DNA from: a virus
Taxonomy: Duplodnaviria; Caudoviricetes
Virus record (IMG/VR): IMGVR_UViG_2595698754_000001
Location: 3,171 to 67,170 of that record
DNA length: 64,000 nucleotides
Reading direction: 5' to 3' (one strand)
The notes beneath the pieces were generated by a model. The model searched no databases. It saw nothing but the letters and a program-made list of their open reading frames with translations, and had not been told where the DNA came from. Made by a program: the position numbers and the translations under genes. Positions 20,339 to 53,062 of the stretch are shown one piece after another (within the stretch, counting starts at the first letter, position 1; each line of letters begins with the position of its first letter).

Positions 20339-20379
20339 AAAAAAATCCCCCACCGTCAAGTCTGGTGAGGGGTTTTCTT
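20339..20379. terminator. bidirectional intrinsic terminator
   Basis: A7-TCCCCCACC...GGTGAGGGG-TTTT between convergent operons. Confidence 0.8.
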
Positions 20380-20593
20380 ATGCTATTTTAAAGTACACTC
20401 CAAGTTTTACTAGATGTTCATTACCTCTGTCATCTACTATAAAGAAGTAGCGTGGCATATGGGGGCTTAATTTAACCACTTCATATGTTTGTAGATGAGT
20501 ATAATGACCAGAACAACCGCCACATCCCATATACCTAACCATATCCCCAATATCTACGCCTTGTGGAGTATTAGACAAGTTTATTCCCTTCAA
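20378..20593 (-). CDS. hypothetical protein
   Basis: Last ORF of the leftward operon; overlaps the upstream gene. Confidence 0.55.
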   Translation of the reverse strand: MKGINLSNTPQGVDIGDMVRYMGCGGCSGHYTHLQTYEVVKLSPHMPRYFFIVDDRGNEHLVKLGVYFKIA

Positions 20594-20942
20594 TCACTCT
20601 GTCTGCTTCTTCTATCACCGCATCGAGTGCTAGAACAATAGACAAAACATCTATATCGCTACTCTCTCCCCCGACTGGAATGTCCATATTATCAAGACCT
20701 TCTGTCAATAGGAGTAGAGCTTTAATGGCTTTTAAAGAAGATTCTATAGTGTTAGTAGTATAATCATAAACTGTTTCAGATATAGTTTCTTCTTTGATGG
20801 CATCATCAACCATCTTCATTGTTCCATCTAATAGCGTAGATAACTTAACTAACGTACTTAGTACTAACATATTATTTAGGAATTCTTTTGAAACCTCAAT
20901 AGTTCCATCTTCCTGATAAATCATTTCATCTTTATTTGACAT
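20571..20942 (-). CDS. hypothetical acidic protein
   Basis: Translationally coupled ORF in the leftward operon. Confidence 0.65.
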   Translation of the reverse strand: MSNKDEMIYQEDGTIEVSKEFLNNMLVLSTLVKLSTLLDGTMKMVDDAIKEETISETVYDYTTNTIESSLKAIKALLLLTEGLDNMDIPVGGESSDIDVLSIVLALDAVIEEADRVIEGNKLV

Positions 20943-21132
20943 GATTATCTAAATCCTTGGCTGCATAACCTCTAATAAAGATTTCTGCTTCATAGACTGG
21001 AGCAAGTAATTCAAGAAGTTCTTGAATTGTGTCTTCCTCTACAATACCAGTCAATCCTAAGATGCGAGTTTCTAAATCTTCAATATCATCATGTAATTTA
21101 CGCACTACTAAAGATAAATTGTTTTCTTGCAT
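20932..21132 (-). CDS. hypothetical protein
   Basis: AAGGGGG RBS; operon context. Confidence 0.65.
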   Translation of the reverse strand: MQENNLSLVVRKLHDDIEDLETRILGLTGIVEEDTIQELLELLAPVYEAEIFIRGYAAKDLDNHVK

Positions 21133-21144
21133 GGTATTTCCCCC

Positions 21145-21852
21145 TTAAAATGGTAATGGCTCTGTTCCAGCTGGTGCTGGTGTAGCAGTTTTACCATGTC
21201 CACTTCCAATTAGTTTATCAATGTCAATTCCAGCTTGTGCAAGTTTTTCTAGTTGTGCTTCTTCGTTATCTTTCCAAAGAGCTTCGTCATATAACTCAAC
21301 ATTGAAACCATCTTTTACATGTGTTTCAAAGTCTTCTACTTGTTTGTTGTTTAAGTCTAGTTCATCTAGGTCTAGAGGTGATACTAAATATCCGCCTTGG
21401 ATACGTTCAATTTCAAAAGCTTTCTTACCAAATTTCTTCTCATGTTTTTCTAACGCTTTGTAAAGAGCTAGAGCTTGTTTCTTAGAAGATACTGGTAAAA
21501 TAAGTTCTTCACCTGTAGCTACTTCCCAGAAACCAAATAAGAATACTGGTTTAGCTTTGATTGCATATGCTAAGTCTTTTAGACGTTTTTCTTCATCGGA
21601 ACCAGTTGGTGCTTCTTTTGCTTCTTGATAAATCATTTCAACTGCTTTATCGTATAAGTCATTTCCAGTACATTCACTAGAACCTTTCCACACTCCGTAA
21701 TACTGATGTTGCATTGCTTGTGCATAACCTTTTTCAAATCCTGCAAATTGTAATACAATACCCTCGTCTTGCTTCAAGAATTTAGTCACTCGTTTAGTTA
21801 CTTTCTTTTCCGCAAATAATGCTTCTTTTGCTTCGCTACCTAATTTTACCAT
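21145..21852 (-). CDS. ssb: single-stranded DNA-binding protein (putative)
   Basis: 235 aa, flexible tail ending EPLPF, strong AAAGGAG RBS. Confidence 0.6.
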   Translation of the reverse strand: MVKLGSEAKEALFAEKKVTKRVTKFLKQDEGIVLQFAGFEKGYAQAMQHQYYGVWKGSSECTGNDLYDKAVEMIYQEAKEAPTGSDEEKRLKDLAYAIKAKPVFLFGFWEVATGEELILPVSSKKQALALYKALEKHEKKFGKKAFEIERIQGGYLVSPLDLDELDLNNKQVEDFETHVKDGFNVELYDEALWKDNEEAQLEKLAQAGIDIDKLIGSGHGKTATPAPAGTEPLPF

Positions 21853-22098
21853 ATGTATTTCTCCTTTGCCTATACAGGACTTTTTATTTTATATACCGGT
21901 TTGCAGACACAATATATAAGATTTATTTTTAGAGGGCTGAGAACCCGTTACATTCCACCTCTTAAATGTTTTATACAACTGAGCCTAATATCGCTTCACT
22001 TATCATGCGGTTGTTTTGGTCGACACTTACTCTTCAATGAGAGCAGGTTGTGGAAACTTAGGAATCATTTGCAGTCTGCAACCAGACAGGGAAATATA

Positions 22099-22617
22099 CT
22101 ATTCTACTTTACCAAACTTGGCATCTAACTTTTTCTGTAGTTCTAAGTTTTCAAGAGTAGCTTCTGTTAACATTTTTTCAACCGCTTTGAAATCTTCTGC
22201 TAGTGTTTTGTTGTAATCACTATCTACGAAACCCTCTGAAATCTTTTTCTCTAATTCTGCAATTTTGGAATCTTTCTCCGTATTTTCTTTTACAGAATCT
22301 AAATATTCCTCATGAACATCTGAACAAGCCTTTGATAATTCCTTAATACGTTCTGATTTATTTTCAACAAGTGTTTCTAGCTCCGCAATTTTTACTGAGT
22401 AGCTCGATTCTGTTTCACGCTGTACTCGCATAACTTCTTCCAGCTCATAATCATTTCCTTGGGAAGCATTAGCAAGCTTTTCCTGTAACTCTTCAATTGT
22501 GTATTCACTATAAGCAGTAATTGCTTGGTTTTCTTTTTTTAAAGTATTATTTTCTTCTTCTAATTTCATTACCTTTTCAGACAAAAAGCAAATTATGTCT
22601 TTTAAATTATCGTTCAT
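22099..22617 (-). CDS. coiled-coil hypothetical protein
   Basis: Glu/Lys-rich heptad pattern. Confidence 0.65.
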   Translation of the reverse strand: MNDNLKDIICFLSEKVMKLEEENNTLKKENQAITAYSEYTIEELQEKLANASQGNDYELEEVMRVQRETESSYSVKIAELETLVENKSERIKELSKACSDVHEEYLDSVKENTEKDSKIAELEKKISEGFVDSDYNKTLAEDFKAVEKMLTEATLENLELQKKLDAKFGKVE

Positions 22618-23267
22618 TTATTTTCCCCCTTGAAATCCTCGTAACGATGACTAATTTTATCGTTAACAATGTAATTATTGTAATCATCTTGCTCAATATA
22701 CCACCAATCTTTTTGGTGACCTTGCTTTAAGAAATCATGCAAGTGGTATGTCGTTTGGTACTCGTCATCTATGCACTGGCGAAAAGAAAGCTCTGTCACC
22801 ACGTCTGATTCTTCTACGAGTTTAACAATGTCACTGATGTAATCTTCATCCATAAATTCTTGTACAACGAATACAGCACGTGCTATCTCATTGTCAACAC
22901 GTTTAATCTGTTTTACATGCTCTTTACGCTGGCAGTGATAAACAATTCTATCAAAATCTACTGGCTGTTTATTTAGTAAACTATATTTATACGAAGTATG
23001 CAACTCATATTCAGCACCTACTGAGTGTGTCTTGTCTGCTAGTGCTTGGTACCAGTTTAATCGCTCTTCGTCAACATGGAACATAGGGTCGCCACCACCA
23101 GATAAGCTTAGGAAACCTAGATTGTTTTCTGCAATAAGTTTGTCAATAGTTTTGTTTACTTCTTGGATATTTGTTTCAGCTATTCCAATATCATTATTCT
23201 TAACGATACAATAAGGGCATGTCCAATGACACCCAAAATTTGTTAAGATACTATAGTTTGATGTCAT
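22614..23267 (-). CDS. radical SAM domain protein
   Basis: CxxxCxxC (CHWTCPYC) and SLSGGGDP motifs; AGGAGG RBS before ATG at 23267. Confidence 0.85.
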   Translation of the reverse strand: MTSNYSILTNFGCHWTCPYCIVKNNDIGIAETNIQEVNKTIDKLIAENNLGFLSLSGGGDPMFHVDEERLNWYQALADKTHSVGAEYELHTSYKYSLLNKQPVDFDRIVYHCQRKEHVKQIKRVDNEIARAVFVVQEFMDEDYISDIVKLVEESDVVTELSFRQCIDDEYQTTYHLHDFLKQGHQKDWWYIEQDDYNNYIVNDKISHRYEDFKGENK

Positions 23268-23289
23268 CTTATACCTCCTATTATTTCTC

Positions 23290-24108
23290 ATATACGCCTT
23301 GGACATCTATTTAATATCAGTCTTTCCAACGGTACCAGAAGGAAAAATCATGAATATAATTTACATGGTTAATTACGCCAGTAAGCGATGTCCAAGGCTT
23401 GTATCAAAAATAATAGCCCGTAGTTATAAAACCAGTAGGACTTCTACGGTGACGAACGTCTTCGTCTTGTCTTTTGTTCCCTCATTTAACTTGCTACTAC
23501 CCGTGGGCTGAGGTATCCATAGACTGCGTACAGAATTAGAATGGACTGGATATTACATACTCGGAAAGGATTTTACTTTTATGAACTAATTAATTTGTTT
23601 TACAGGACTTTTAAGGAATAAGACCTACGTTTCTTACCCAACCCATTAACTACTTCATGAGGTGCACTTACCTTTTCCGTCACAAGTATAAGCTGTTAAC
23701 ATACAGCCAAACGCCACAGACCAGTTTTACTTCCATTATGCGGACAGGATGTGAGATTAGGATGGGAATACGTCTCCCACCGAGACCGACGAGCAAGTAC
23801 TAAGCCCTTGTCTGGCAACATGACAATCTCATCTGCCACGTCCTCTATATTACGGTTATGTGTTTGTCATAGTAGCGAGCGGACAACCCTCTAACAACAA
23901 ACTCCACTCCACATATATAAAGTATCGAAAGCTAGTATCACAACATACTATTTGGCGGACTTCATAGGCTATGAACCTAGTCTGTCCATAATGTGGCAGT
24001 TGATATATTAGCAACCACCACAAAATAATTAAGAAGGAGGTGTGTGAAATAAACATAAACGAAAGGTGATGATGTCTTTTCACTAAGCTAACCTTGTGGC
24101 TAACTTAT
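23290..24108 (-). ncRNA. candidate large structured non-coding RNA (about 820 nt)
   Basis: No credible ORF; extended -10 promoter at 24115-24123; many nested inverted repeats including long-range stems. Confidence 0.6.
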
Positions 24109-24114
24109 ATACAT

Positions 24115-24123
24115 ATTATAGCA
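24115..24123 (-). promoter_or_regulatory. extended -10 promoter (TGnTATAAT) driving the ncRNA candidate and leftward operon
   Basis: Minus strand reads TGCTATAAT. Confidence 0.7.
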
Positions 24124-24204
24124 TGAATATATCCGTAACGAAACACTAATACTAAAAATAGGTCTTAGGTATGAACTTTAGTATTTGTGCTTGCGTTGCC
24201 GAGT

Positions 24205-24365
24205 AAAGTGATTTAATCTTTTAATTACTAACATAAGTTCTTTAAGAGATTAAGGTCAAGAGATTAAAAGAGTTTCGCCTTTGGCGACCGGCTTTGCCGG
24301 AAAGTTCTTTATCTCTTTTCTTTTTATCTATTAAAGATATATAATATGCACACGTGCGTGAAACG
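24205..24365. other. candidate replication origin
   Basis: AAGAGATTAA direct repeats with an inverted partial copy, twin GC hairpins and an AT-rich tract, upstream of the replication genes. Confidence 0.35.
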
Positions 24366-24382
24366 TTTAGGAGGGAAAAGTT

Positions 24383-24900
24383 TTGGTTAATGTTAAACAA
24401 ATAAAAGATTATCCAGATTATTTTGTATATGATGATGGCAGGATTTTTAGTAATATTTCTAATAGATTCTTAAAAACAGTCGTAAATAATTTAGGATATG
24501 TAAAAGTAGGATTGAATGGTAAGGGTGGTAGAAAGACTGTTTCTGTTCATAGATTAGTAGCACAAGCTTTTATAGAGAATGTAGAAAATAAGCCACAAGT
24601 AAATCATATTGACGAGGATAAGACAAATAACAATGTATCTAATCTAGAGTGGTGCACTTCTTTTGAAAATATGCACCATGGAAGTAGAGGAAAACGTGCT
24701 GGTAAAGCTGTTTCAAAAGCACATAGCAAGAAAATAGTTGGAACAACATCATAACAGGAGAAAAACTATTCTATGATTCTGCTACAGCTGCGGAAAAGGA
24801 TGGAAAAGGATTTAATCAAGGAAATATTTGTTCGGTTATTAAAGGCAGATTAAAAACATCAATGGGATATACTTGGGAATATGTATTTGACAATAATTAA
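24383..24900 (+). pseudogene. NUMOD4-HNH homing endonuclease, frameshifted before the C-terminal DNA-binding domain
   Basis: [24 protein letters not shown]; stops at 24754, but the NUMOD1/IENR1-like tail ([20 protein letters not shown]) continues in another frame to 24900. Confidence 0.75.
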
Positions 24901-34199: not shown

Positions 34200-34748
34200 A
34201 TGAAATATCCAAGTATTGCAATTATAGGAAAATCACGAACAGGTAAGTCAACTATTGCAGAGTTTATTGCAAGCTATACTGGTAATCACCACATGGGATT
34301 TGGCAAAGCAATGAAAGATGAATTCCATAGAACATTCCCAGATATTCCACGGTCACCGAAGCCACGAGATGAATACATAAAGTACGGACAAGCCATGAGA
34401 GAGATTGACGAGGACGTTTGGGTTAAGAAGTTATCAGCCCAAATGCCCGTCGGCTCTGTAGGTGTTGTCATAGATGACGTAAGACAAGAGAACGAATTAG
34501 ATTTCTGTATACGAGGTGGCATGTTAATTATTCAAGTTGTTTGTGATGATGATGTAGCCTTAAAACGTGCAGAACATTTAGGTGAAGACCTAGAAATAAA
34601 TAATGAATTAGATGTAGTATTTGATGGAAAAGACATTCCAATAGATGCTGTTATTACAAATAACGGACGTTCTTACACGGAAGTATACGACCAAATACTG
34701 GATTTACTTGAGAGTTGGAAAAAAGATGAGTTTCCTAGAAACACGTGA
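34200..34748 (+). CDS. deoxynucleoside monophosphate kinase
   Basis: GKSRTGKST Walker A; VVIDDVRQENE. Confidence 0.85.
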   Translation: MKYPSIAIIGKSRTGKSTIAEFIASYTGNHHMGFGKAMKDEFHRTFPDIPRSPKPRDEYIKYGQAMREIDEDVWVKKLSAQMPVGSVGVVIDDVRQENELDFCIRGGMLIIQVVCDDDVALKRAEHLGEDLEINNELDVVFDGKDIPIDAVITNNGRSYTEVYDQILDLLESWKKDEFPRNT

Positions 34749-35091
34749 AACAGATTACTTTCCTAAAAAGTTAGTAATGATGATAGACAATGCACCAAGA
34801 TTATTTTCAGACTATGAAAAAGCAAGTACTCGTATTAATGGAAGTATCCAAAACCAATTAATTAATATTTTGGAGGATGCTTTTAAGACAGTTAATATGC
34901 CAGAGAAGTTGCAAGATATAGCTATCCTAACTTTTGTCTATGAATATACACCAGCAGAATCAGCTAATATACTTGGAATAAATAGAGCAACAGCGTACAG
35001 ACATCTTGATAAAGCTATAGAAATACTACAAGGAAGTGAAACATTTAAAAATGAACTCAGAGACGGAGAAAAAGGGTTATGGACATTTTAG
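34726..35091 (+). CDS. sigma-70 region 4-like HTH transcriptional regulator
   Basis: YTPAESANILGINRATAYRHLDKA. Confidence 0.7.
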   Translation: MSFLETRETDYFPKKLVMMIDNAPRLFSDYEKASTRINGSIQNQLINILEDAFKTVNMPEKLQDIAILTFVYEYTPAESANILGINRATAYRHLDKAIEILQGSETFKNELRDGEKGLWTF

Positions 35092-45924: not shown

Positions 45925-46656
45925 TTTATCACCACCTTTATCATTTTATTATAGCACATTTTAATTATTTTTGATAGCTATTTTTAAAAGTTTTTCCTAC
46001 AAAGTTAAATTCAAAACATAAGTGGGGGTCATTTTTGAAATAATTTTAAAACTTTTTTTTGAAAAAATTAATTTTTTTCTGGGGATTATTTAAATTTTTT
46101 TTCTGGGAAAACTCAAAACCATTGGTACCACTTGTTTCAGAACGTTTTCCGCAATATTTGACAGTTGCAACAATCTGTGTTAAAATTAATTTACAAGTTA
46201 AGGGAATGTTGTCGCAAACATTAGCCAAAACTTGAATACAAATTTCTGCTAAAAATGATGAACACTTTCCCAGCGTTCTGTAAATTAACAGTAAATTGTA
46301 TTGGAAAAACAGTTATAAAATCAGTTTAACTATATCTGATTAGAAAATCCGCCTTTAAAAATTTGAGATACGTTTTCTACTTCGACTACTTAATTGTTTT
46401 CAAGTTCAAATCCGTTCTGTCAACTCAAATTATTTTAGGTGGATTTTTACTTTGAACACATAAATTTGGAGGGGAAATTTTTGGGTGAAATTTACGAGTA
46501 CCTCCGGGGAATTTTCGCCCCTCAGCACGCCCCCGCACCCGGGAAATCACCAGCAAAAAGCTACCGCAGACACCTAAAAAGACGTCGATTTCAGGTACAT
46601 CAATAAAGGTCAAAGTCAGCTTTGGTCAAACTCTTGTCATCCTATTTCCCTCTTTC

Positions 46657-46712
46657 TGTAACAAACTTGTAACACAAAAAAGCTAGACAAACAGAAAAAA
46701 GCGTGCTAAGAT
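46657..46712 (+). promoter_or_regulatory. early promoter with TGTAAC-N5-TGTAAC box
   Basis: Box 46657-46673, 10 bp gap, TAGACA-17-TAAGAT. Confidence 0.8.
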
Positions 46713-46742
46713 TAGCTTATCAATTAAAAGGAGCTGGTTAAA

Positions 46743-46976
46743 ATGACAGCAACAAGCAATTACATTCTATTAAACAGAGCTTCGAACGCTCTATATAATG
46801 TAGTAGACAAAAGCACCTGCGACACACAAACGAAAACGGAATTAAAACAGGCGTTACACGTAATACACCGAGCTATGATGGAGGAAAATGGAGATATACA
46901 AAAACCACTTTCTACTATAGAAAATAAAACGCTCGGAATTAAAGTAATCGAAAACGGAAAGGAAACGATAATATGA
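46743..46976 (+). CDS. early hypothetical protein
   Basis: AAAGGAG RBS behind a boxed promoter. Confidence 0.7.
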   Translation: MTATSNYILLNRASNALYNVVDKSTCDTQTKTELKQALHVIHRAMMEENGDIQKPLSTIENKTLGIKVIENGKETII

Positions 46977-47062
46977 AACAACTTCTATTAAAAGCAATTC
47001 CAAGCTTGACACTTATCGCATTATCTGTTACGATGTTGTTAGTAATCTTATATCAAATGTAG
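46973..47062 (+). CDS. 29-aa hydrophobic peptide (not in ORF track)
   Basis: MKQLLLKAIPSLTLIALSVTMLLVILYQM; AAAGGA RBS; ATGA overlap with the upstream stop. Confidence 0.55.
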   Translation: MKQLLLKAIPSLTLIALSVTMLLVILYQM

Positions 47063-47069
47063 AAAGGAA

Positions 47070-51494: not shown

Positions 51495-51500
51495 GAAGTA

Positions 51501-51530
51501 AAGGCTCTCCACAGGGAGGGTCTTCTTTTT
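51501..51530 (+). terminator. intrinsic terminator ending the early island
   Basis: GGCTCTCC-ACAG-GGAGGGTC followed by TTCTTTTT. Confidence 0.75.
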
Positions 51531-52565
51531 GGCGTTATGTGTTTGAATATTCAGAATATAGAGAATATGTCTTAAATAGAGAATAGTAAAATGGAGTGAT
51601 TCTAACGCATTTAACTTTGGAAAGGTGGATAAGTGTATGTTAAGTGTTGTATAATCGCACTAGAATTTCCGCACAATTTAACCCCTTAAATATAGGGGGA
51701 CTATTTGGGGACGTGTGAGGGCGTGTTATATCGTGTATAATTACGGGTAATATATGGGTACTTATATGGACGATATGTTGGATAGTAGTATAATAACTGT
51801 GCTAATATGGGTGTATTATAGGGGCTATATATTACAGGTAATTCACCACGATCTATGGCAAATAGGATAAGGTATTTGTGGAGGATAATGGCGGATGAAT
51901 ATGGGGCTATTTGGGGAACATTGTGGGGTACTTGTTTGGAAATGGTTAGGAACTAATATTGGCGTGTTAAAGCGGGTTTATATGAGATAACATGTGTGGC
52001 ATGTTGTGACGTGTTATAGCCATATAATTATATAAGGTATTTAATACTGTTATAGTATATGTATAACAAGTTAAGATATGTTTAGAACCTACCTCTTTAA
52101 CAGTGCTTCACTCGAACACACACGACTACACTGTATGAGAATTTAATATTATCTAAATATAATTATCTATTATTTTATACTCATCTAACAAGTTAACATA
52201 ATGTATGTTATAGGAAGTATAATTAGCTAATCGAATGTAAGCGTTTTATTAGCCCTTATATTAAATAGTACCTGTATCATGTATATCTATGTGTAGTTAC
52301 TGTAGTACACGTGCACACACGCACTCACATGCTAATACATGTAATATAAATAAAGCAAGTGTGCAATACGTGTCGAGCTAACGAGGAGCGAGCGAAAGCG
52401 AGCGAGTAGACTGAGTAGTTAGAGGAGTCGGAAAATTCGGATACGTAGGGGTGTTTAAAAAATTCTGATAATTCTCCGTAGACTATTACAATTTCACGTT
52501 TCCTATTTTCACTGTATGGGTTACGAATAGGGGTACTAAGTAAACCGCCACAGTGTTTAACCTTG

Positions 52566-52607
52566 TCACAACACGCCACAACACGTCCACACTAGCCACA
52601 ACACGCC
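52566..52607. repeat. short repeats CACAACACG (3 copies plus a partial copy)
   Basis: TCACAACACGCCACAACACGTCCACACTAGCCACAACACGCC. Confidence 0.75.
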
Positions 52608-52634
52608 AAAAAGAGTACCTAACTGGCACTCTCT
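52608..52634 (-). terminator. intrinsic terminator of the leftward gene array
   Basis: Minus strand AGAGTGCC-AGTTA-GGTACTCT-TTTT. Confidence 0.75.
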
Positions 52635-52658
52635 GGTTAAACTATGCGGGAATTTTCA

Positions 52659-52853
52659 TTAAGATACTCCACCGTTGGTAAGCCATAGCCAAACTAGTGC
52701 TAACAATCCCACACCAGTGGTAATATCTAGGAACCTAGAATAAGCGGGTCTTTTCCCCTTATTTTTAATACCTTCAATAAGGTTAGTAATCCCGAAGAAG
52801 CTAAATCCTACTATCACTATATAAGTTAAAATCTGTACTACTATATCTGCCAA
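52659..52853 (-). CDS. small 2-TM membrane protein
   Basis: AAGGAGGTG RBS; two hydrophobic helices. Confidence 0.7.
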   Translation of the reverse strand: MADIVVQILTYIVIVGFSFFGITNLIEGIKNKGKRPAYSRFLDITTGVGLLALVWLWLTNGGVS

Positions 52854-52876
52854 AAGTTTTTCACCTCCTTAAGTTT

Positions 52877-53062
52877 TTATAAGAACACTACTATCACGAA
52901 CCAACTCATTCCAGCAAATAGAAGACCTGCCAATATGTCTATAACGCCACCAACCACTTCTTCACCACTTCTTACTTTGCACACACCAGTAAATATGGTA
53001 GTAATACTTCCAAAAAAGTAGCTAATAATTGCGAACCACACTACGAACATATTAGTTCCCAT
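52877..53062 (-). CDS. small 2-TM membrane protein
   Basis: Two hydrophobic helices; coupled ORF. Confidence 0.65.
   Translation of the reverse strand: MGTNMFVVWFAIISYFFGSITTIFTGVCKVRSGEEVVGGVIDILAGLLFAGMSWFVIVVFL

What the first reader, a model, noticed from the sequence alone, without database searches (positions are those of the whole stretch)
23290..24108. Candidate ~820-nt highly structured phage ncRNA
Seen: an ORF-free stretch in an otherwise dense genome, starting just downstream of a minus-strand TGnTATAAT (24115-24123). It holds nested stems: GCCTTGGACATC/GATGTCCAAGGC (23296-23307/23387-23398, 12 bp perfect), CCGTAG/CTACGG (23418-23449), GACGAA/TTCGTC, GCTGT/ACAGC, and a long-range helix CATTAT..GGACAG/CTGTCC-ATAATG (23734-23747/23982-23993) enclosing TGAGATT/AATCTCA, TGGGA/TCCCA, GTCTC/GAGAC, TAGTAT/ATACTA and TTCATAG/CTATGAA. 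The 5' hairpin has a G-U pair only in the minus orientation. The 5' part carries anti-SD-like tracts (CACACCUCCUUCUU, AUCACCUUUC). Known: Firmicutes phages encode large ornate RNAs such as GOLLD and ROOL. Inference: a member of such a class, a new class, or a chain of sRNAs. I cannot assign a family by eye.
Basis: partly seen in the sequence, partly recalled or inferred. Interest (0 to 1): 0.85.

Follow-up and report, generated by a model that had tools for sequence, protein, structure and literature searches.

The report
Structured leader RNA of Listeria phage
The gene-free stretch is most likely a long, folded leader RNA in front of a leftward operon of a lytic Listeria phage, assembled from modules that temperate Listeria phages place before their late genes (two are already catalogued, one is a decayed look-alike of a leucine tRNA), so it is a real structured RNA region but not a new giant RNA class.

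Summary
The window is a virulent Listeria phage (Homburgvirus). Window 23268-24382 lies between a leftward cassette (radical-SAM gene first) and the rightward HNH/replication genes. The minus strand folds better than the plus strand (-243 vs -200 kcal/mol). Rfam gives no GOLLD, ROOL, intron or RNase P match. It gives mcrA (RF03010, 58.8 bits, above cut-off) at 23466-23414 and a weak rli62 match at 23934-23766.

The core (23866-23417) is collinear with the leader between the late regulator (ArpU/Ltr type) and the first late gene of temperate Listeria phages. That leader contains rli62, then a tRNA-Leu-like element that I found in no Rfam 15 family and in neither of two literature searches, then variable hairpins, then mcrA. 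An intrinsic terminator follows mcrA at 15-19 nt in 66 of 67 unique temperate leaders. None of the 6 Homburgvirus leaders has it; they carry a 30-nt-arm hairpin abutting the Shine-Dalgarno site instead.

Compensatory changes and sense-only G-U pairs support RNA structure on the minus strand. Window 24346-23747 is 100% identical in six phages whose flanks are 88-98% identical.

Verdict: a modular cis-leader RNA, a new variant of a known kind. The mechanism (processing and antitermination heritage) is inferred.

The parts
24115..24123 (-). Extended -10 promoter-like site TGCTATAAT. It is the proposed start of the leader, with the transcript beginning near 24105-24108.
   Evidence: Located. It is invariant in 6 of 6 Homburgvirus phages. 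The -35/-10 scan did not list it because it has no good -35. Use as a promoter is inferred.
23935..24107 (-). Genus-specific 5' part. It holds hairpin 24106-24085, hairpin 24083-24044, the anti-SD-like tract CACACCUCCUUCUU at 24044-24031, a 10-bp hairpin 24021-23993 with two adjacent G-U pairs, and small hairpins at 23975-23961 and 23950-23933.
   Evidence: The fold of 24108-23867 gives z -3.22, with 2 of 200 shuffles as good. It has no homolog in 67 temperate leaders (nhmmer) and appears only in Homburgvirus records by blastn. It is 100% identical in six phages, so covariation cannot be tested.
23751..23934 (-). rli62-like module. H1 pairs 23841-23834 with 23825-23818. The H1 loop forms a pseudoknot, 23831-23825 with 23758-23752. 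H2 pairs 23812-23807 with 23797-23791. H4 pairs 23781-23775 with 23767-23761 and has a GACG-containing loop.
   Evidence: Rfam rli62 RF01486 scores 25.9 bits, E 0.037, below the gathering score of 83. nhmmer matches 42 of 67 temperate leaders, best E 1.4e-12. Pair counts are; the H2 compensatory changes are. The window's H1 was read by eye because A3 misaligns it by two columns.
23692..23708 (-). Small hairpin GGCUGU-AUGUUA-ACAGC between the modules.
   Evidence: The same hairpin is present in some temperate leaders (L073, L060) and in the LP-037 type.
23557..23689 (-). Decayed tRNA-Leu-like element (TLE). It has an acceptor-like stem AUACUUG/CGAGUAU (23689-23683 with 23563-23557, one U-G pair), a D-arm-like UGACGGAAAAGGUAAGUG (23682-23665), a long interior, and a weakened T-arm-like AAAG-UAAAAUC-CUUU (23580-23565).
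   Evidence: Model R1 scores 94 bits and finds this as the only copy in the 67-kb genome. Relaxed ARAGORN does not call the window's own copy.
23470..23546 (-). Variable hairpin module C. It holds CUG-UACG-CAG (a UNCG loop, 23533-23524) and the stem CCUCA/UGAGG (about 23513-23479).
   Evidence: nhmmer of 23546-23400 matches 38 of 67 temperate leaders. At least four unrelated sequence classes occupy this position in other phages.
23414..23466 (-). mcrA RNA motif: hairpin P1 GACGAA-GACG-UUCGUC (23466-23451) followed by a conserved tract of about 35 nt with the possible stem CCGUAG/CUACGG (23449-23444 with 23423-23418).
   Evidence: Rfam RF03010 scores 58.8 bits against a gathering score of 57.6, model positions 1-51 of 51. 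P1 stem variants among phages are listed.
23278..23416 (-). Large hairpin D. It has 30-nt arms (87% complementary, perfect 12-bp core) and a 79-nt interior, with no U-run after it. It occupies the place where temperate leaders have an intrinsic terminator.
   Evidence: I1. The fold of 23470-23262 gives z -5.05, 0 of 200 shuffles as good. 0 of 6 Homburgvirus leaders have a terminator-like site, against 66 of 67 temperate leaders. The 12-bp core is invariant and the substitutions fall in the interior.
23265..23279 (-). SD AGGAGG (23279-23274) and the ATG (23267-23265) of the radical-SAM gene 22614-23267. The base of hairpin D ends at 23278, so it overlaps the first two bases of the SD.
   Evidence: In the whole-region MFE the SD pairs with the 5' anti-SD tract. 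This is a prediction only.
24111..24346 (.). Upstream control region inside the invariant block. It holds back-to-back terminator-like hairpins (24275-24287 on the minus strand, 24288-24300 on the plus strand), the repeat AGAGATTAA twice, a second minus-strand promoter-like site at 24259-24230, and the rightward -10 TATAAT at 24340-24345.
   Evidence: Its function was not tested. It may belong to DNA-level control (promoters, possibly a replication origin) rather than to the RNA.

Best explanation
Window 24107-23268 (minus strand) is a non-coding 5' leader of about 840 nt. It is probably transcribed from the extended -10 promoter at 24123-24115 and runs without a terminator into the SD and the radical-SAM gene of the leftward operon. 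It is a chain of independently folding modules, not one ornate fold.

Shown:
- The central 450 nt are homologous to, and collinear with, the ltr(ArpU)-to-first-late-gene leader of temperate Listeria phages. The order there is rli62 module, tRNA-Leu-like element, variable hairpins, mcrA motif.
- Several helices are kept by compensatory and sense-specific wobble changes.
- In temperate phages the chain ends in an intrinsic terminator at a fixed 15-19 nt after mcrA.
- In this virulent phage that terminator is replaced by a long hairpin that touches the SD.

Inferred:
- In temperate phages the leader is an antitermination-controlled late leader. A promoter-proximal RNA stops at the terminator unless RNA polymerase is made termination-resistant, as at lambda PR'-tR'.
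- The tRNA-like element serves as an RNase P/RNase Z (tRNA elbow) processing signal. That is why its acceptor stem, D-loop and T-arm are conserved while its anticodon region is free to vary.
- In the Homburgvirus the terminator has been lost, so read-through is constitutive. The retained modules would act on processing or stability of the operon mRNA. Hairpin D, possibly with the 5' CCUCCU tract, would tune translation initiation of the first gene.
- The window's own tRNA-like copy looks degenerate and may no longer be functional.
For: Identity and context:
- The window is closest to Homburgvirus phages: 100% identity to LP-010 and LP-013 over 1079 nt.

Homology:
- mcrA scores above its cut-off and rli62 matches weakly, both on the minus strand.
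- In temperate LP-101 the same order and strand hold: rli62 at 112 bits and mcrA at 77 bits, between 'transcriptional regulator' and hyp+HNH.
- nhmmer modules A, B and C hit 42, 28 and 38 of 67 unique temperate leaders, collinearly.

Strand and structure:
- MFE is -243 (minus) against -200.4 (plus) kcal/mol.
- mcrA P1 stem variants are GACGAA/TTCGTC, AGCATT/AATGCT, ATCGCT/AGTGAT, GTCATT/AATGGC and AGCACT/AGTGTT, with an invariant GACG loop and G-T wobbles in the sense strand.
- In module A, 96.5% of cells are paired against 36-44% when slid. 6 of 25 pairs changed on both sides, 0 of 500 shuffles reach that, and the pseudoknot helix is 99.4% paired.

tRNA-Leu-like element:
- Relaxed ARAGORN calls a sense tRNA spanning the module ends in 17 of 37 unique copies, in 0 of 371 shuffles and in 0 of 37 reverse complements.
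- Model R1 cross-hits only the tRNA-Leu genes among the tRNAs present in L099 and L101.
- The D-arm is nearly identical to genuine tRNA-Leu.
- The outgroup copies L097 and L098 have fully compensated acceptor stems. 7 of 13 pairs changed on both sides and 99.6% of cells are paired.
- In L098 the element lies next to a real tRNA-Pro and upstream of terS.

Terminator:
- 66 of 67 temperate leaders have a hairpin plus T-run 15-19 nt after mcrA, and the terminator stems covary. 0 of 6 Homburgvirus leaders have one.

Constraint:
- 24346-23747 is identical in six phages. Adjacent genes are 94-98% identical and other gene-poor gaps are 88-94% identical.

Precedent:
- tRNA genes lie at the 5' end of the late operon of P22-like phages L and Sf6 (PMC8022706, passages read).
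Against: - No transcript data. No RNA run was listed, so the start, the end and the unity of the RNA are not shown.
- The promoter is a consensus match only.
- The 5' 240 nt and hairpin D have no sequence variation or outside homologs. Their structure therefore rests on thermodynamic prediction alone.
- Within the Listeria set the tRNA-like helices are almost invariant: 1 pair with a two-sided change in 37 sequences, and 16 of 500 shuffles reach that. The covariation comes from only three outgroup sequences, in an alignment fitted to the model.
- The 35-nt conserved tract of mcrA shows no covariation and could be read at the DNA level.
- The window's tRNA-like copy fails even the relaxed ARAGORN test and has non-canonical T-stem pairs.
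- LP-110 and LP-018 have lost most of the radical-SAM gene yet keep the leader. The leader is therefore not tied to that gene.
- RNase P/Z processing, antitermination and SD occlusion are all untested inferences.
- A recent recombinational sweep could also give the 600-nt identity.
Confidence: 0.6

Rival explanations
1. DNA-level control region. The invariant block and the conserved tract of mcrA would be promoter, activator-binding or replication-origin DNA at the divergent junction next to the replication genes. The mcrA tract would be a late promoter plus regulator site (a Q-binding-element-like arrangement followed by a terminator), and the hairpins would be incidental.
For: - The 35-nt mcrA tract is invariant without covariation and has a variable 4-5-nt spacer between two conserved halves.
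- In temperate phages a promoter-like tract followed by a terminator just before the late genes fits the lambda PR'/QBE/tR' layout (lambda layout recalled).
- 24111-24346 holds promoter-like sites, back-to-back terminators and short repeats, and lies beside the DnaC-like loader, helicase and primase genes.
- The window encodes a 148-aa sigma-region-4-like protein that could be a distant late regulator.
- Direct repeats GACCCGTTT follow the ArpU gene in temperate loci, as proposed for Ltr binding in PMC3753634 (passages read).
Against: - The P1 hairpin directly abuts the tract and has no U-run. Transcription that makes P1 therefore reads through the tract.
- The imperfect P1 pairs are G-T in the sense strand in 3 variants, against one terminal A-C.
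- Compensatory changes in module A and in the tRNA-like element, the strand asymmetry of 43 kcal/mol, and UNCG loops all point to RNA.
- The best -10-like hexamer in the tract (TATAAC/CATAAC) lacks the final T, and it sits 12 nt from GTAGAA, too close for sigma-A spacing (my reading).
- No ArpU, RinA, DUF722 or DUF1492 family match was found in the 67-kb genome.
Confidence: 0.17
2. A chain of separate small RNAs. An rli62-like sRNA, a tRNA-like RNA and others would be made by processing or internal termination and act in trans, rather than forming an mRNA leader.
For: - rli62 and rliG are reported as RNAs of the A118 prophage of L. monocytogenes EGD-e (PMC3556495 and PMC3105390, passages read).
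- rliG is expressed in lysogeny and dispensable for virion production in phi10403S (PMC7397523, passages read).
- The modules are exchanged independently among phages.
- A tRNA-like element would give RNase P/Z cuts, which would release pieces.
Against: - No terminator-like site on the minus strand inside 23268-24108.
- The region runs straight into an SD and a gene.
- 12-14-nt matches between the region and the rest of the phage genome are at chance level: 5 matches of 13 nt against 3.55 in shuffles. No antisense target is evident.
Confidence: 0.12
3. One large ornate trans-acting ncRNA of the GOLLD/ROOL kind, or a new class of that size.
For: - Size of about 840 nt, many nested stems, and significant folding z-scores.
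- Extreme conservation of 600 nt.
- The phage setting.
Against: - No match to GOLLD, ROOL, introns or RNase P, even at E up to 10.
- The enclosing long-range helix is lost in 4 of 6 relatives.
- The middle 200 nt are swapped wholesale between sister phages.
- The modules occur separately in other phages. For example, vB_LmoS_188 matched the window only over the tRNA-like module, and the exact mcrA pattern did not find it.
- No terminator at the 3' end.
Confidence: 0.07
4. The region encodes small proteins, such as the 66-aa ORF 23856-24056 on the minus strand (phrog_18039), and conservation reflects coding.
For: - The ORF is annotated as a hypothetical protein in 3 records.
- It forms a PHROG family.
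- Its N-terminus is hydrophobic (my translation).
Against: - No SD-like sequence before its ATG (reading).
- Its 3' end overlaps the rli62-like RNA module, whose temperate homologs do not keep the frame.
- ORFs of 30-75 aa occur on both strands here.
- A 100% identical block gives no codon-position signal.
- The PHROG hit may consist only of these same phages.
Confidence: 0.04

Closest known systems
mcrA RNA motif (Rfam RF03010; found by comparative genomics in Weinberg et al. 2017, NAR 45:10811)
   Same: Window 23466-23414 matches the full model above the gathering score. It has the P1 hairpin with the GACG loop and the conserved 3' tract.
   Different: - In the window it precedes a radical-SAM gene, not an HNH ('mcrA'-annotated) gene.
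- It has a 1-nt insertion in the variable spacer.
- It lacks the intrinsic terminator that follows it in 66 of 67 temperate leaders.
- The main text of the 2017 paper does not mention the motif. Its description is in supplements that I could not open. What I say about its published gene association is recalled.
- A search for the motif's name found no follow-up paper.
rli62 (Rfam RF01486) and rliG, RNAs of the A118-like prophage of L. monocytogenes
   Same: Same position and order relative to mcrA as in temperate phages. Hairpins H1 and H2 and a pseudoknot are kept with compensatory changes.
   Different: - Only 25.9 bits against a gathering score of 83, so this is a distant, partial relative and not a member by Rfam's criterion.
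- The 5' inverted repeat GAGAAGUGAAG/CUUCACUUCUC of the temperate version is not recognisable here.
- The pseudoknot is not part of the Rfam structure line shown.
Lambdoid late leader (PR' - 6S RNA - tR', read through by Q) and tRNA genes at the 5' end of late operons of P22-like phages L and Sf6
   Same: In the temperate relatives a regulator gene is followed by a structured leader that ends in an intrinsic terminator just before the first late gene, with a tRNA(-like) element inside the leader. Phage L carries tRNA-Asn and tRNA-Leu 46 bp after the putative late start (PMC8022706).
   Different: - The Gram-positive regulators (ArpU/Ltr) are described as activators, not antiterminators (PMC3753634).
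- The element here is not a functional-looking tRNA.
- The window's own copy has no terminator.
- The lambda details are recalled, not tested.
RNA-based processive antitermination elements (HK022 put, Bacillus EAR); recalled
   Same: A cis-acting structured leader RNA placed upstream of terminators in a phage or operon leader.
   Different: No sequence or structure similarity was tested or found, and no function is shown. This is an analogy only.
GOLLD and ROOL large RNAs
   Same: Phage or prophage setting in Firmicutes. Several hundred nucleotides with many stems.
   Different: No covariance-model match. The architecture is modular and exchangeable. The region is attached to a downstream gene.

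Membership tests
mcrA RNA (RF03010) | Covariance-model score at or above the gathering score (57.6 bits) over the full model | tested here: met
   58.8 bits, model positions 1-51 of 51, minus strand 23466-23414
mcrA RNA (RF03010) | 5' hairpin with covarying stem, followed by a conserved tract of about 35 nt | tested here: met
   P1 is GACGAA-GACG-UUCGUC. The tract ACCGUAGAAGU..AUAACUACGG is present with one inserted base.
mcrA RNA (RF03010) | Lies upstream of HNH ('mcrA'-annotated) endonuclease genes in prophage-like regions (association recalled; the supplement was not readable) | tested here: not met
   The downstream gene in the window is a radical-SAM gene. In temperate relatives an HNH or a hyp+HNH gene follows.
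rli62 (RF01486) | Score at or above the gathering score (83 bits) | tested here: not met
   25.9 bits, E 0.037. LP-101 scores 112 bits.
rli62 (RF01486) | Conserved hairpins in the 3' half | tested here: met
   H1, H2 and H4 are retained. 96.5% of cells are paired and 6 pairs have two-sided changes. The window's H1 was checked by eye.
tRNA (RF00005 / ARAGORN) | Recognised as a tRNA by standard detectors | tested here: not met
   ARAGORN finds 0 genes in the window. No tRNA match in 23000-24500 at E up to 10. The window copy is not called even at 80% threshold.
tRNA-like element (acceptor stem + T-arm + D-loop of the tRNA-Leu type) | A 7-bp closing stem, U8, a D-arm sequence like tRNA-Leu, and a T-arm-like hairpin with a 7-nt loop directly stacked on the closing stem | tested here: inconclusive
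   Met for the family (17 of 37 relaxed calls against 0 of 371 shuffles; cross-hits to tRNA-Leu only; compensated stems). In the window copy the closing stem and the GG of the D-loop are kept, but the T-arm is weakened and the D-arm has diverged.
Lambda-type terminator-controlled late leader | An intrinsic terminator between the leader and the first gene | tested here: not met
   0 of 6 Homburgvirus leaders, against 66 of 67 temperate leaders. No minus-strand terminator-like site in 23268-24108.
Lambda-type terminator-controlled late leader | A cognate late regulator gene immediately upstream | tested here: not met
   No gene lies upstream on the minus strand. No ArpU, DUF722, DUF1492 or RinA match was found in the genome. 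There is only a distant sigma-r4-like 148-aa protein at 34645-35091.
GOLLD / ROOL / group I-II introns / RNase P | A covariance-model match | tested here: not met
   None at gathering score over 64 kb and none at E up to 10 in 23000-24500.

The most novel reading that the evidence does not exclude
The rli62 - tRNA-Leu-like - mcrA - terminator chain would be one RNA switch through which temperate Listeria phages gate their whole late operon. Late control by LlgA/ArpU, including its reported temperature dependence, would act by antitermination and processing on this leader rather than by simple promoter activation. The tRNA-like element, with its conserved elbow and hypervariable anticodon domain, would be a dedicated RNase P/Z (or other tRNA-elbow reader) handle. 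A virulent phage would have captured the leader, deleted its terminator, and kept 600 nt of it frozen because it uses the same host machinery, or because it competes for that machinery with resident prophages.
Probability: 0.2. Interest if true: 0.75.

Novelty: new variant of a known kind. Interest (0 to 1): 0.5.

Why it matters
Three reasons it matters if true.
- It links two orphan Rfam entries (mcrA and rli62, neither with a known function) into one collinear leader with a clear genetic position, between the late regulator and the first late gene. It also gives a fixed relation to an intrinsic terminator. This turns 'unknown motif' into a testable hypothesis about how late genes of Gram-positive phages are switched on.
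- It adds a family of tRNA-Leu-derived elements that I found in no Rfam 15 family and in neither of two literature searches. Their conservation pattern (acceptor stem, D-loop and T-arm kept; anticodon domain free) predicts tRNA-type processing inside a phage mRNA leader.
- It shows that virulent and temperate Listeria phages exchange non-coding regulatory modules.

For the window itself the practical value is annotation. The 1.1-kb 'empty' stretch that phage records leave unannotated, or label with a 66-aa hypothetical protein, is probably a regulatory RNA leader.

Tried and rejected
Tried without result or rejected:
1. Large-RNA families. cmscan of the whole window and a permissive scan of 23000-24500 gave no GOLLD, ROOL, intron or RNase P match. 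I rejected membership.
2. RNA-seq. The look-up of sequencing runs listed no RNA holder, so none was listed and read laying was not used.
3. Function of the downstream genes. Pfam, PHROGs, NCBIfam and PDB sequence searches gave only a weak radical-SAM signal and families of unknown function.
4. Antiterminator pairing. I looked by eye for complementarity between the mcrA variable loop or the tRNA-like D-loop and the terminator 5' arm (sequences). It fits some variants (CUACUGG/CCAGU, GCUGG/CCAGC) and fails in others (AUUCAGG with GUCCAGCAC, and all GCUCCGA terminators). Rejected.
5. Sigma-A promoter inside mcrA. The spacing does not fit (reading). I keep it only as part of the DNA-level rival.
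6. Homing-endonuclease co-conversion as the cause of the 600-nt identity. The right flank of the HNH site is 94.6-97.4% identical, and phages with different HNH alleles share the identical left flank. Judged unlikely but not excluded.
7. Trans targets in the phage genome. 12-14-nt matches are at chance level.
8. A second copy of the modules. Model R1 and Rfam found none in the rest of the 67-kb genome.
9. Wider homologs of mcrA for covariation. Only 1 of 151 sampled Bacilli genomes matched above the cut-off.
10. Literature.
- mcrA is not in the main text of the 2017 paper.
- Searches for the motif name and for tRNA-like elements in Listeria prophages or late operons found nothing relevant. For one search I saw only the listing.
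- Two paper searches were badly worded and returned unrelated papers.
- The Mandin 2007 passages did not give the position of rliG.
- Supplements are closed. The coordinates of rli62 and rliG, the ncRNA table of PMC7397523 and the mcrA description could bear on where the transcripts start and end.
Full report
WHAT THE WINDOW IS. The region 23268-24382 matches only Listeria phages. It is 100% identical over 1079 nt to LP-010 and LP-013, and 91-99% identical to LP-018, LP-110, LP-KV022, LP-114, LP-037 and LP-031, all of the genus Homburgvirus (virulent siphoviruses of about 65 kb). The window is 64 kb of a 67,170-bp virus record. Structural genes fill 1-20332 on the plus strand. A minus-strand cassette of six genes follows (20378-23267); its first gene encodes a 217-aa radical-SAM protein and the rest are PHROG families of unknown function. 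From 24383 an HNH homing endonuclease and replication genes run on the plus strand. The finding therefore sits at the divergent junction of the leftward cassette and the rightward early/replication genes.

CHECK OF THE OBSERVATION. The stretch has only short ORFs of 31-75 aa on both strands. The 12-bp stem is the core of a much longer hairpin with 30-nt arms at 87% complementarity. As RNA, the minus strand of 24108-23268 folds to -243 kcal/mol (z -3.86, 20 shuffles). The plus strand folds to -200.4 kcal/mol (z -2.15). The 43 kcal/mol difference arises because many helices contain G-U pairs that would be A-C mismatches on the other strand. Sub-regions give z -5.05 (23470-23262, 0 of 200 shuffles as good) and z -3.22 (24108-23867, 2 of 200).

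WHAT RFAM SAYS. No large-RNA family matches. The only hit above a gathering score in the whole window is the mcrA RNA motif, RF03010, at 23466-23414 on the minus strand (58.8 against 57.6 bits). A permissive scan adds a weak match to rli62, RF01486, at 23934-23766 on the minus strand (25.9 bits, E 0.037). The remaining weak hits are microRNA models matching the big hairpin and are of no account.

THE LINK TO TEMPERATE PHAGES. Parts of the region (23418-23689) match temperate Listeria phages at 75-89% identity.
- In LP-101 the match lies in the 560-nt gap between a 'transcriptional regulator' and hyp+HNH, just before the terminase. It has the same orientation as those genes, which corresponds to the window's minus strand.
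- Rfam finds in that gap, in the same 5'-to-3' order, an rliG fragment, rli62 (112 bits) and mcrA (77 bits).
- The regulator belongs to the ArpU/Ltr family (phrog_36). This family is required for late transcription from a site upstream of terS in Gram-positive phages (PMC3753634, passages). In Listeria phi10403S the member is LlgA (PMC7397523, passages).
- I collected 78 viral contigs and one genome contig carrying the mcrA core. With the GenBank loci these gave 72 unique leaders, 67 temperate and 5 Homburgvirus. One search lists 6 Homburgvirus rows because LP-010 and the window count as one sequence.
- nhmmer with pieces of the window shows three collinear homologous modules: A (about 23866-23751) in 42 of 67 leaders, B (23746-23552) in 28 of 67, and C with mcrA (23545-23417) in 38 of 67.
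- The 5' 175 nt (24110-23935), the 3' hairpin (23399-23268) and the upstream 24346-24111 have no temperate homolog.
- The modules occur in different combinations and sequence classes in different phages.

MODULE A (rli62-like). Across 32 unique sequences, including the window, four helices are kept. 96.5% of cells are paired, against 36-44% when the 3' partners are slid. 6 of 25 pairs changed on both sides, and 0 of 500 shuffles reach that. The window differs from the temperate consensus by compensatory changes in H2 (G-C to A-U and A-U to G-C) and in the pseudoknot (G-C or G-U to A-U). By my own reading it also differs in H1, which is ACGUGGCA/UGUCAUGU with two G-U pairs against AUAUAGCA/UGCUAUAU. 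The alignment misplaces the window's H1 by two columns, so the tool counts do not credit it. As the tool warns, related sequences can beat the shuffles without any structure. The slid controls and the two-sided changes are the better evidence.

MODULE B IS A tRNA-Leu LOOK-ALIKE. All 37 unique copies share four features:
- a 7-bp closing stem AUACUCG/CGAGUAU;
- the tract UG-RCGGAAUAGGUAGACG;
- an interior that falls into at least six unrelated classes of 40-140 nt;
- the hairpin GCAAGG-UGCAAAU-CCUUGC, stacked directly on the closing stem.

This is the layout of a tRNA: acceptor stem, U8, a D-arm with GG, a T-arm with a 7-nt loop closed by G-C. The evidence for that reading is as follows.
It does so in 0 of 371 shuffles (10 of 371 shuffles give any call) and in 0 of 37 reverse complements.
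- By my reading, the 101-nt class has a complete anticodon arm with loop AUGAGUC (U33, GAG) and a long variable arm with a UUCG loop.
- A covariance model of the module (R1), searched in 151 Bacilli genomes, hit five. One was the Listeria genome. Two held non-tRNA homologs. Two held genes that Rfam and ARAGORN identify as tRNA-Leu. Among the seven tRNAs of locus L101, only the tRNA-Leu was hit.
- The D-arm is nearly identical to genuine tRNA-Leu.
- The two outgroup homologs have entirely different but complementary acceptor stems (GAGGCAG/CUGCCUC and ACACGG/CCGUGU) and a compensated T-stem (GUAAGG/CCUUAC). With these included, 7 of 13 pairs show two-sided changes and 99.6% of cells pair, against 26-46% when slid.
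- One outgroup copy lies 14 nt after a real tRNA-Pro and upstream of two small genes and terS.

The caveats are these. Inside the Listeria set the helices hardly vary. The covariation rests on three sequences, and alignment A4 was fitted to the model. The T-loop has G where tRNAs have the universal U55 (a fact I recall). Standard detectors reject all copies. The window's own copy (23689-23557) is the most degenerate: the acceptor stem is kept with one U-G pair, the D-arm reads GGUAAGUG, and the T-arm is reduced to AAAG-UAAAAUC-CUUU. LP-037, LP-114 and LP-031 carry a canonical copy whose interior belongs to the same class as one temperate prophage. Virulent and temperate phages therefore exchange this module.

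mcrA AND WHAT FOLLOWS IT. The P1 stem varies among phages with compensation, while its GACG loop never changes. The imperfect pairs are G-T in the sense strand in three variants and A-C in one terminal position. The next 35 nt are almost invariant apart from a 4-5-nt spacer. In 66 of 67 unique temperate leaders a hairpin plus T-run follows at 15-19 nt. Two stem families are seen, and both covary (GTCCAGYAC/GTGYTGGGC and GCYCCGA/TCGGGGC). The SD and the first late gene come next. The one exception has the same hairpin with a mismatch. None of the six Homburgvirus leaders has this terminator. In its place is hairpin D (23416-23278), whose base ends two bases inside the SD AGGAGG.

CONSERVATION. 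In six Homburgvirus phages the first 600 aligned columns (window 24346 to 23747) have no substitution at all. The next 200 nt (module B) are swapped between two lineages, and the last 280 nt are about 95% identical. The same phages are 94-98% identical to the window in the adjacent genes and 88-94% identical in two other gene-poor gaps. LP-010, identical here over 1079 nt, is 94.6% identical in the replication genes next door and 88% in the 45.9-kb gap. This points to strong constraint or to a recent sweep, and I cannot tell which. Part of the invariant block (24111-24346) lies upstream of the proposed promoter. It holds promoter-like and terminator-like sites for both strands, so DNA-level functions probably contribute.

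HOW IT MOST LIKELY WORKS. Three things are shown: a minus-strand structured region, its homology to the temperate late leader, and the fixed mcrA-terminator unit in temperate phages. The rest is inferred.
- In temperate phages a leader RNA that ends at a terminator just before the late genes resembles the lambda PR'-tR' arrangement (recalled). It implies that late expression needs read-through. The RNAs rli62 and rliG seen in lysogens would be products of this leader.
- The tRNA-like element conserves exactly the parts that RNase P, RNase Z and other tRNA-elbow readers recognise (established knowledge, recalled). Its anticodon domain is free to vary. I therefore propose that it is a processing signal. 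tRNA genes at the start of late operons are known in P22-like phages.
- In this virulent phage there is no ArpU, RinA, DUF722 or DUF1492 homolog. There is only a distant sigma-region-4-like 148-aa protein, and there is no terminator.
- I therefore read the region as a constitutive 5' leader. Its retained modules would act on mRNA processing or stability, and hairpin D would modulate translation of the first gene. The 5' CCUCCU tract may help, since the MFE pairs it with the SD (prediction only).
- LP-110 and LP-018 have lost most of the radical-SAM gene but keep the leader. The leader therefore serves the operon, or itself, and not that gene.

RIVALS. In order of weight:
- DNA-level control elements, especially the mcrA tract as a late promoter or regulator site, and an origin or promoter cluster in 24111-24346;
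- separate small RNAs rather than a leader;
- one ornate RNA;
- small proteins.

Evidence for and against each is given in the rival entries.

NOVELTY. mcrA and rli62 are catalogued, but I found no function for them. The main text of the 2017 paper does not mention mcrA, a search for the motif name found nothing, and the supplements are closed. I found no description of the tRNA-Leu-like element or of the leader as a unit (searches, listings and one paper's passages only).

I file the window feature as a new variant of a known kind, a phage operon leader RNA made of known and related motifs. I put its interest at about 0.5. It is clearly real and more than chance, not the new giant RNA class that was hoped for, and it opens a testable question about late-gene control in Listeria phages.

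Noticed in passing
window 24347-24872: The HNH homing endonuclease here (24383-24754, 123 aa) is a different allele from the 167-aa HNH at the same site in LP-010, LP-013, LP-018, LP-031, LP-037, LP-110 and LP-114. Similarity to those phages stops at 24346 and resumes at 24873.
   Followed up: partly
window 22674-23193 (compare L001:3384-3500 and L028:1379-1495): LP-110 and LP-018 lack most of the radical-SAM gene, leaving a 117-nt ORF, but keep the leader at 97-98% identity. The gene is therefore dispensable for these phages.
   Followed up: partly
window 45925-47069 and 51495-53051: Two further ORF-poor stretches of 1.1 and 1.6 kb. They are 88-94% identical to the other Homburgvirus phages, which annotate small hypothetical proteins in them. 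No Rfam family matched at gathering score.
   Followed up: partly
window 34645-35091 (+): A 148-aa protein with a sub-threshold sigma-70 region-4 match. It matches phrog_517 'HTH DNA binding protein' and weakly phrog_36, the family of the Listeria ArpU/Ltr regulators. It is a possible distant late regulator of this phage.
   Followed up: partly
window 24000-24305 (+): A plus-strand promoter-like site (TTGATA-18-AATAAT, 24000-24029) and a plus-strand terminator-like hairpin (24288-24300 plus T-run) could bound an RNA of about 270 nt antisense to the minus promoter and to the first 70 nt of the leader. Its fold gives z -2.04.
   Followed up: partly
L033:670-779; L047, L056, L077 and L090 versus L003 (tRNA-like element): Two hairpin loops are found in both orientations among phages: T-loop TGCAAAT against ATTTGCA, and interior AAGAAACGTATGTCTT against AAGACATACGTTTCTT. 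These look like DNA-level flips of hairpin loops.
   Followed up: no
L003:1205-1245 (-), and L005, L039, L057 at the same place: Direct repeats (GACCCGTTT twice; GCCCGTTT in LP-101) lie right after the ArpU stop codon. In several loci they overlap a TTGACA-16-TATTAT promoter-like site. They are candidate Ltr-binding repeats and a candidate late promoter of the temperate leaders.
   Followed up: no
This is the same late-leader position outside Listeria.
   Followed up: partly
L004 (vB_LmoS_188) 244-503: This temperate phage has the tRNA-like element in the gap after a sigma-factor-like regulator. Its blastn match to the window covers only that module, and the exact mcrA pattern did not find the locus. 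The modules therefore travel separately.
   Followed up: partly
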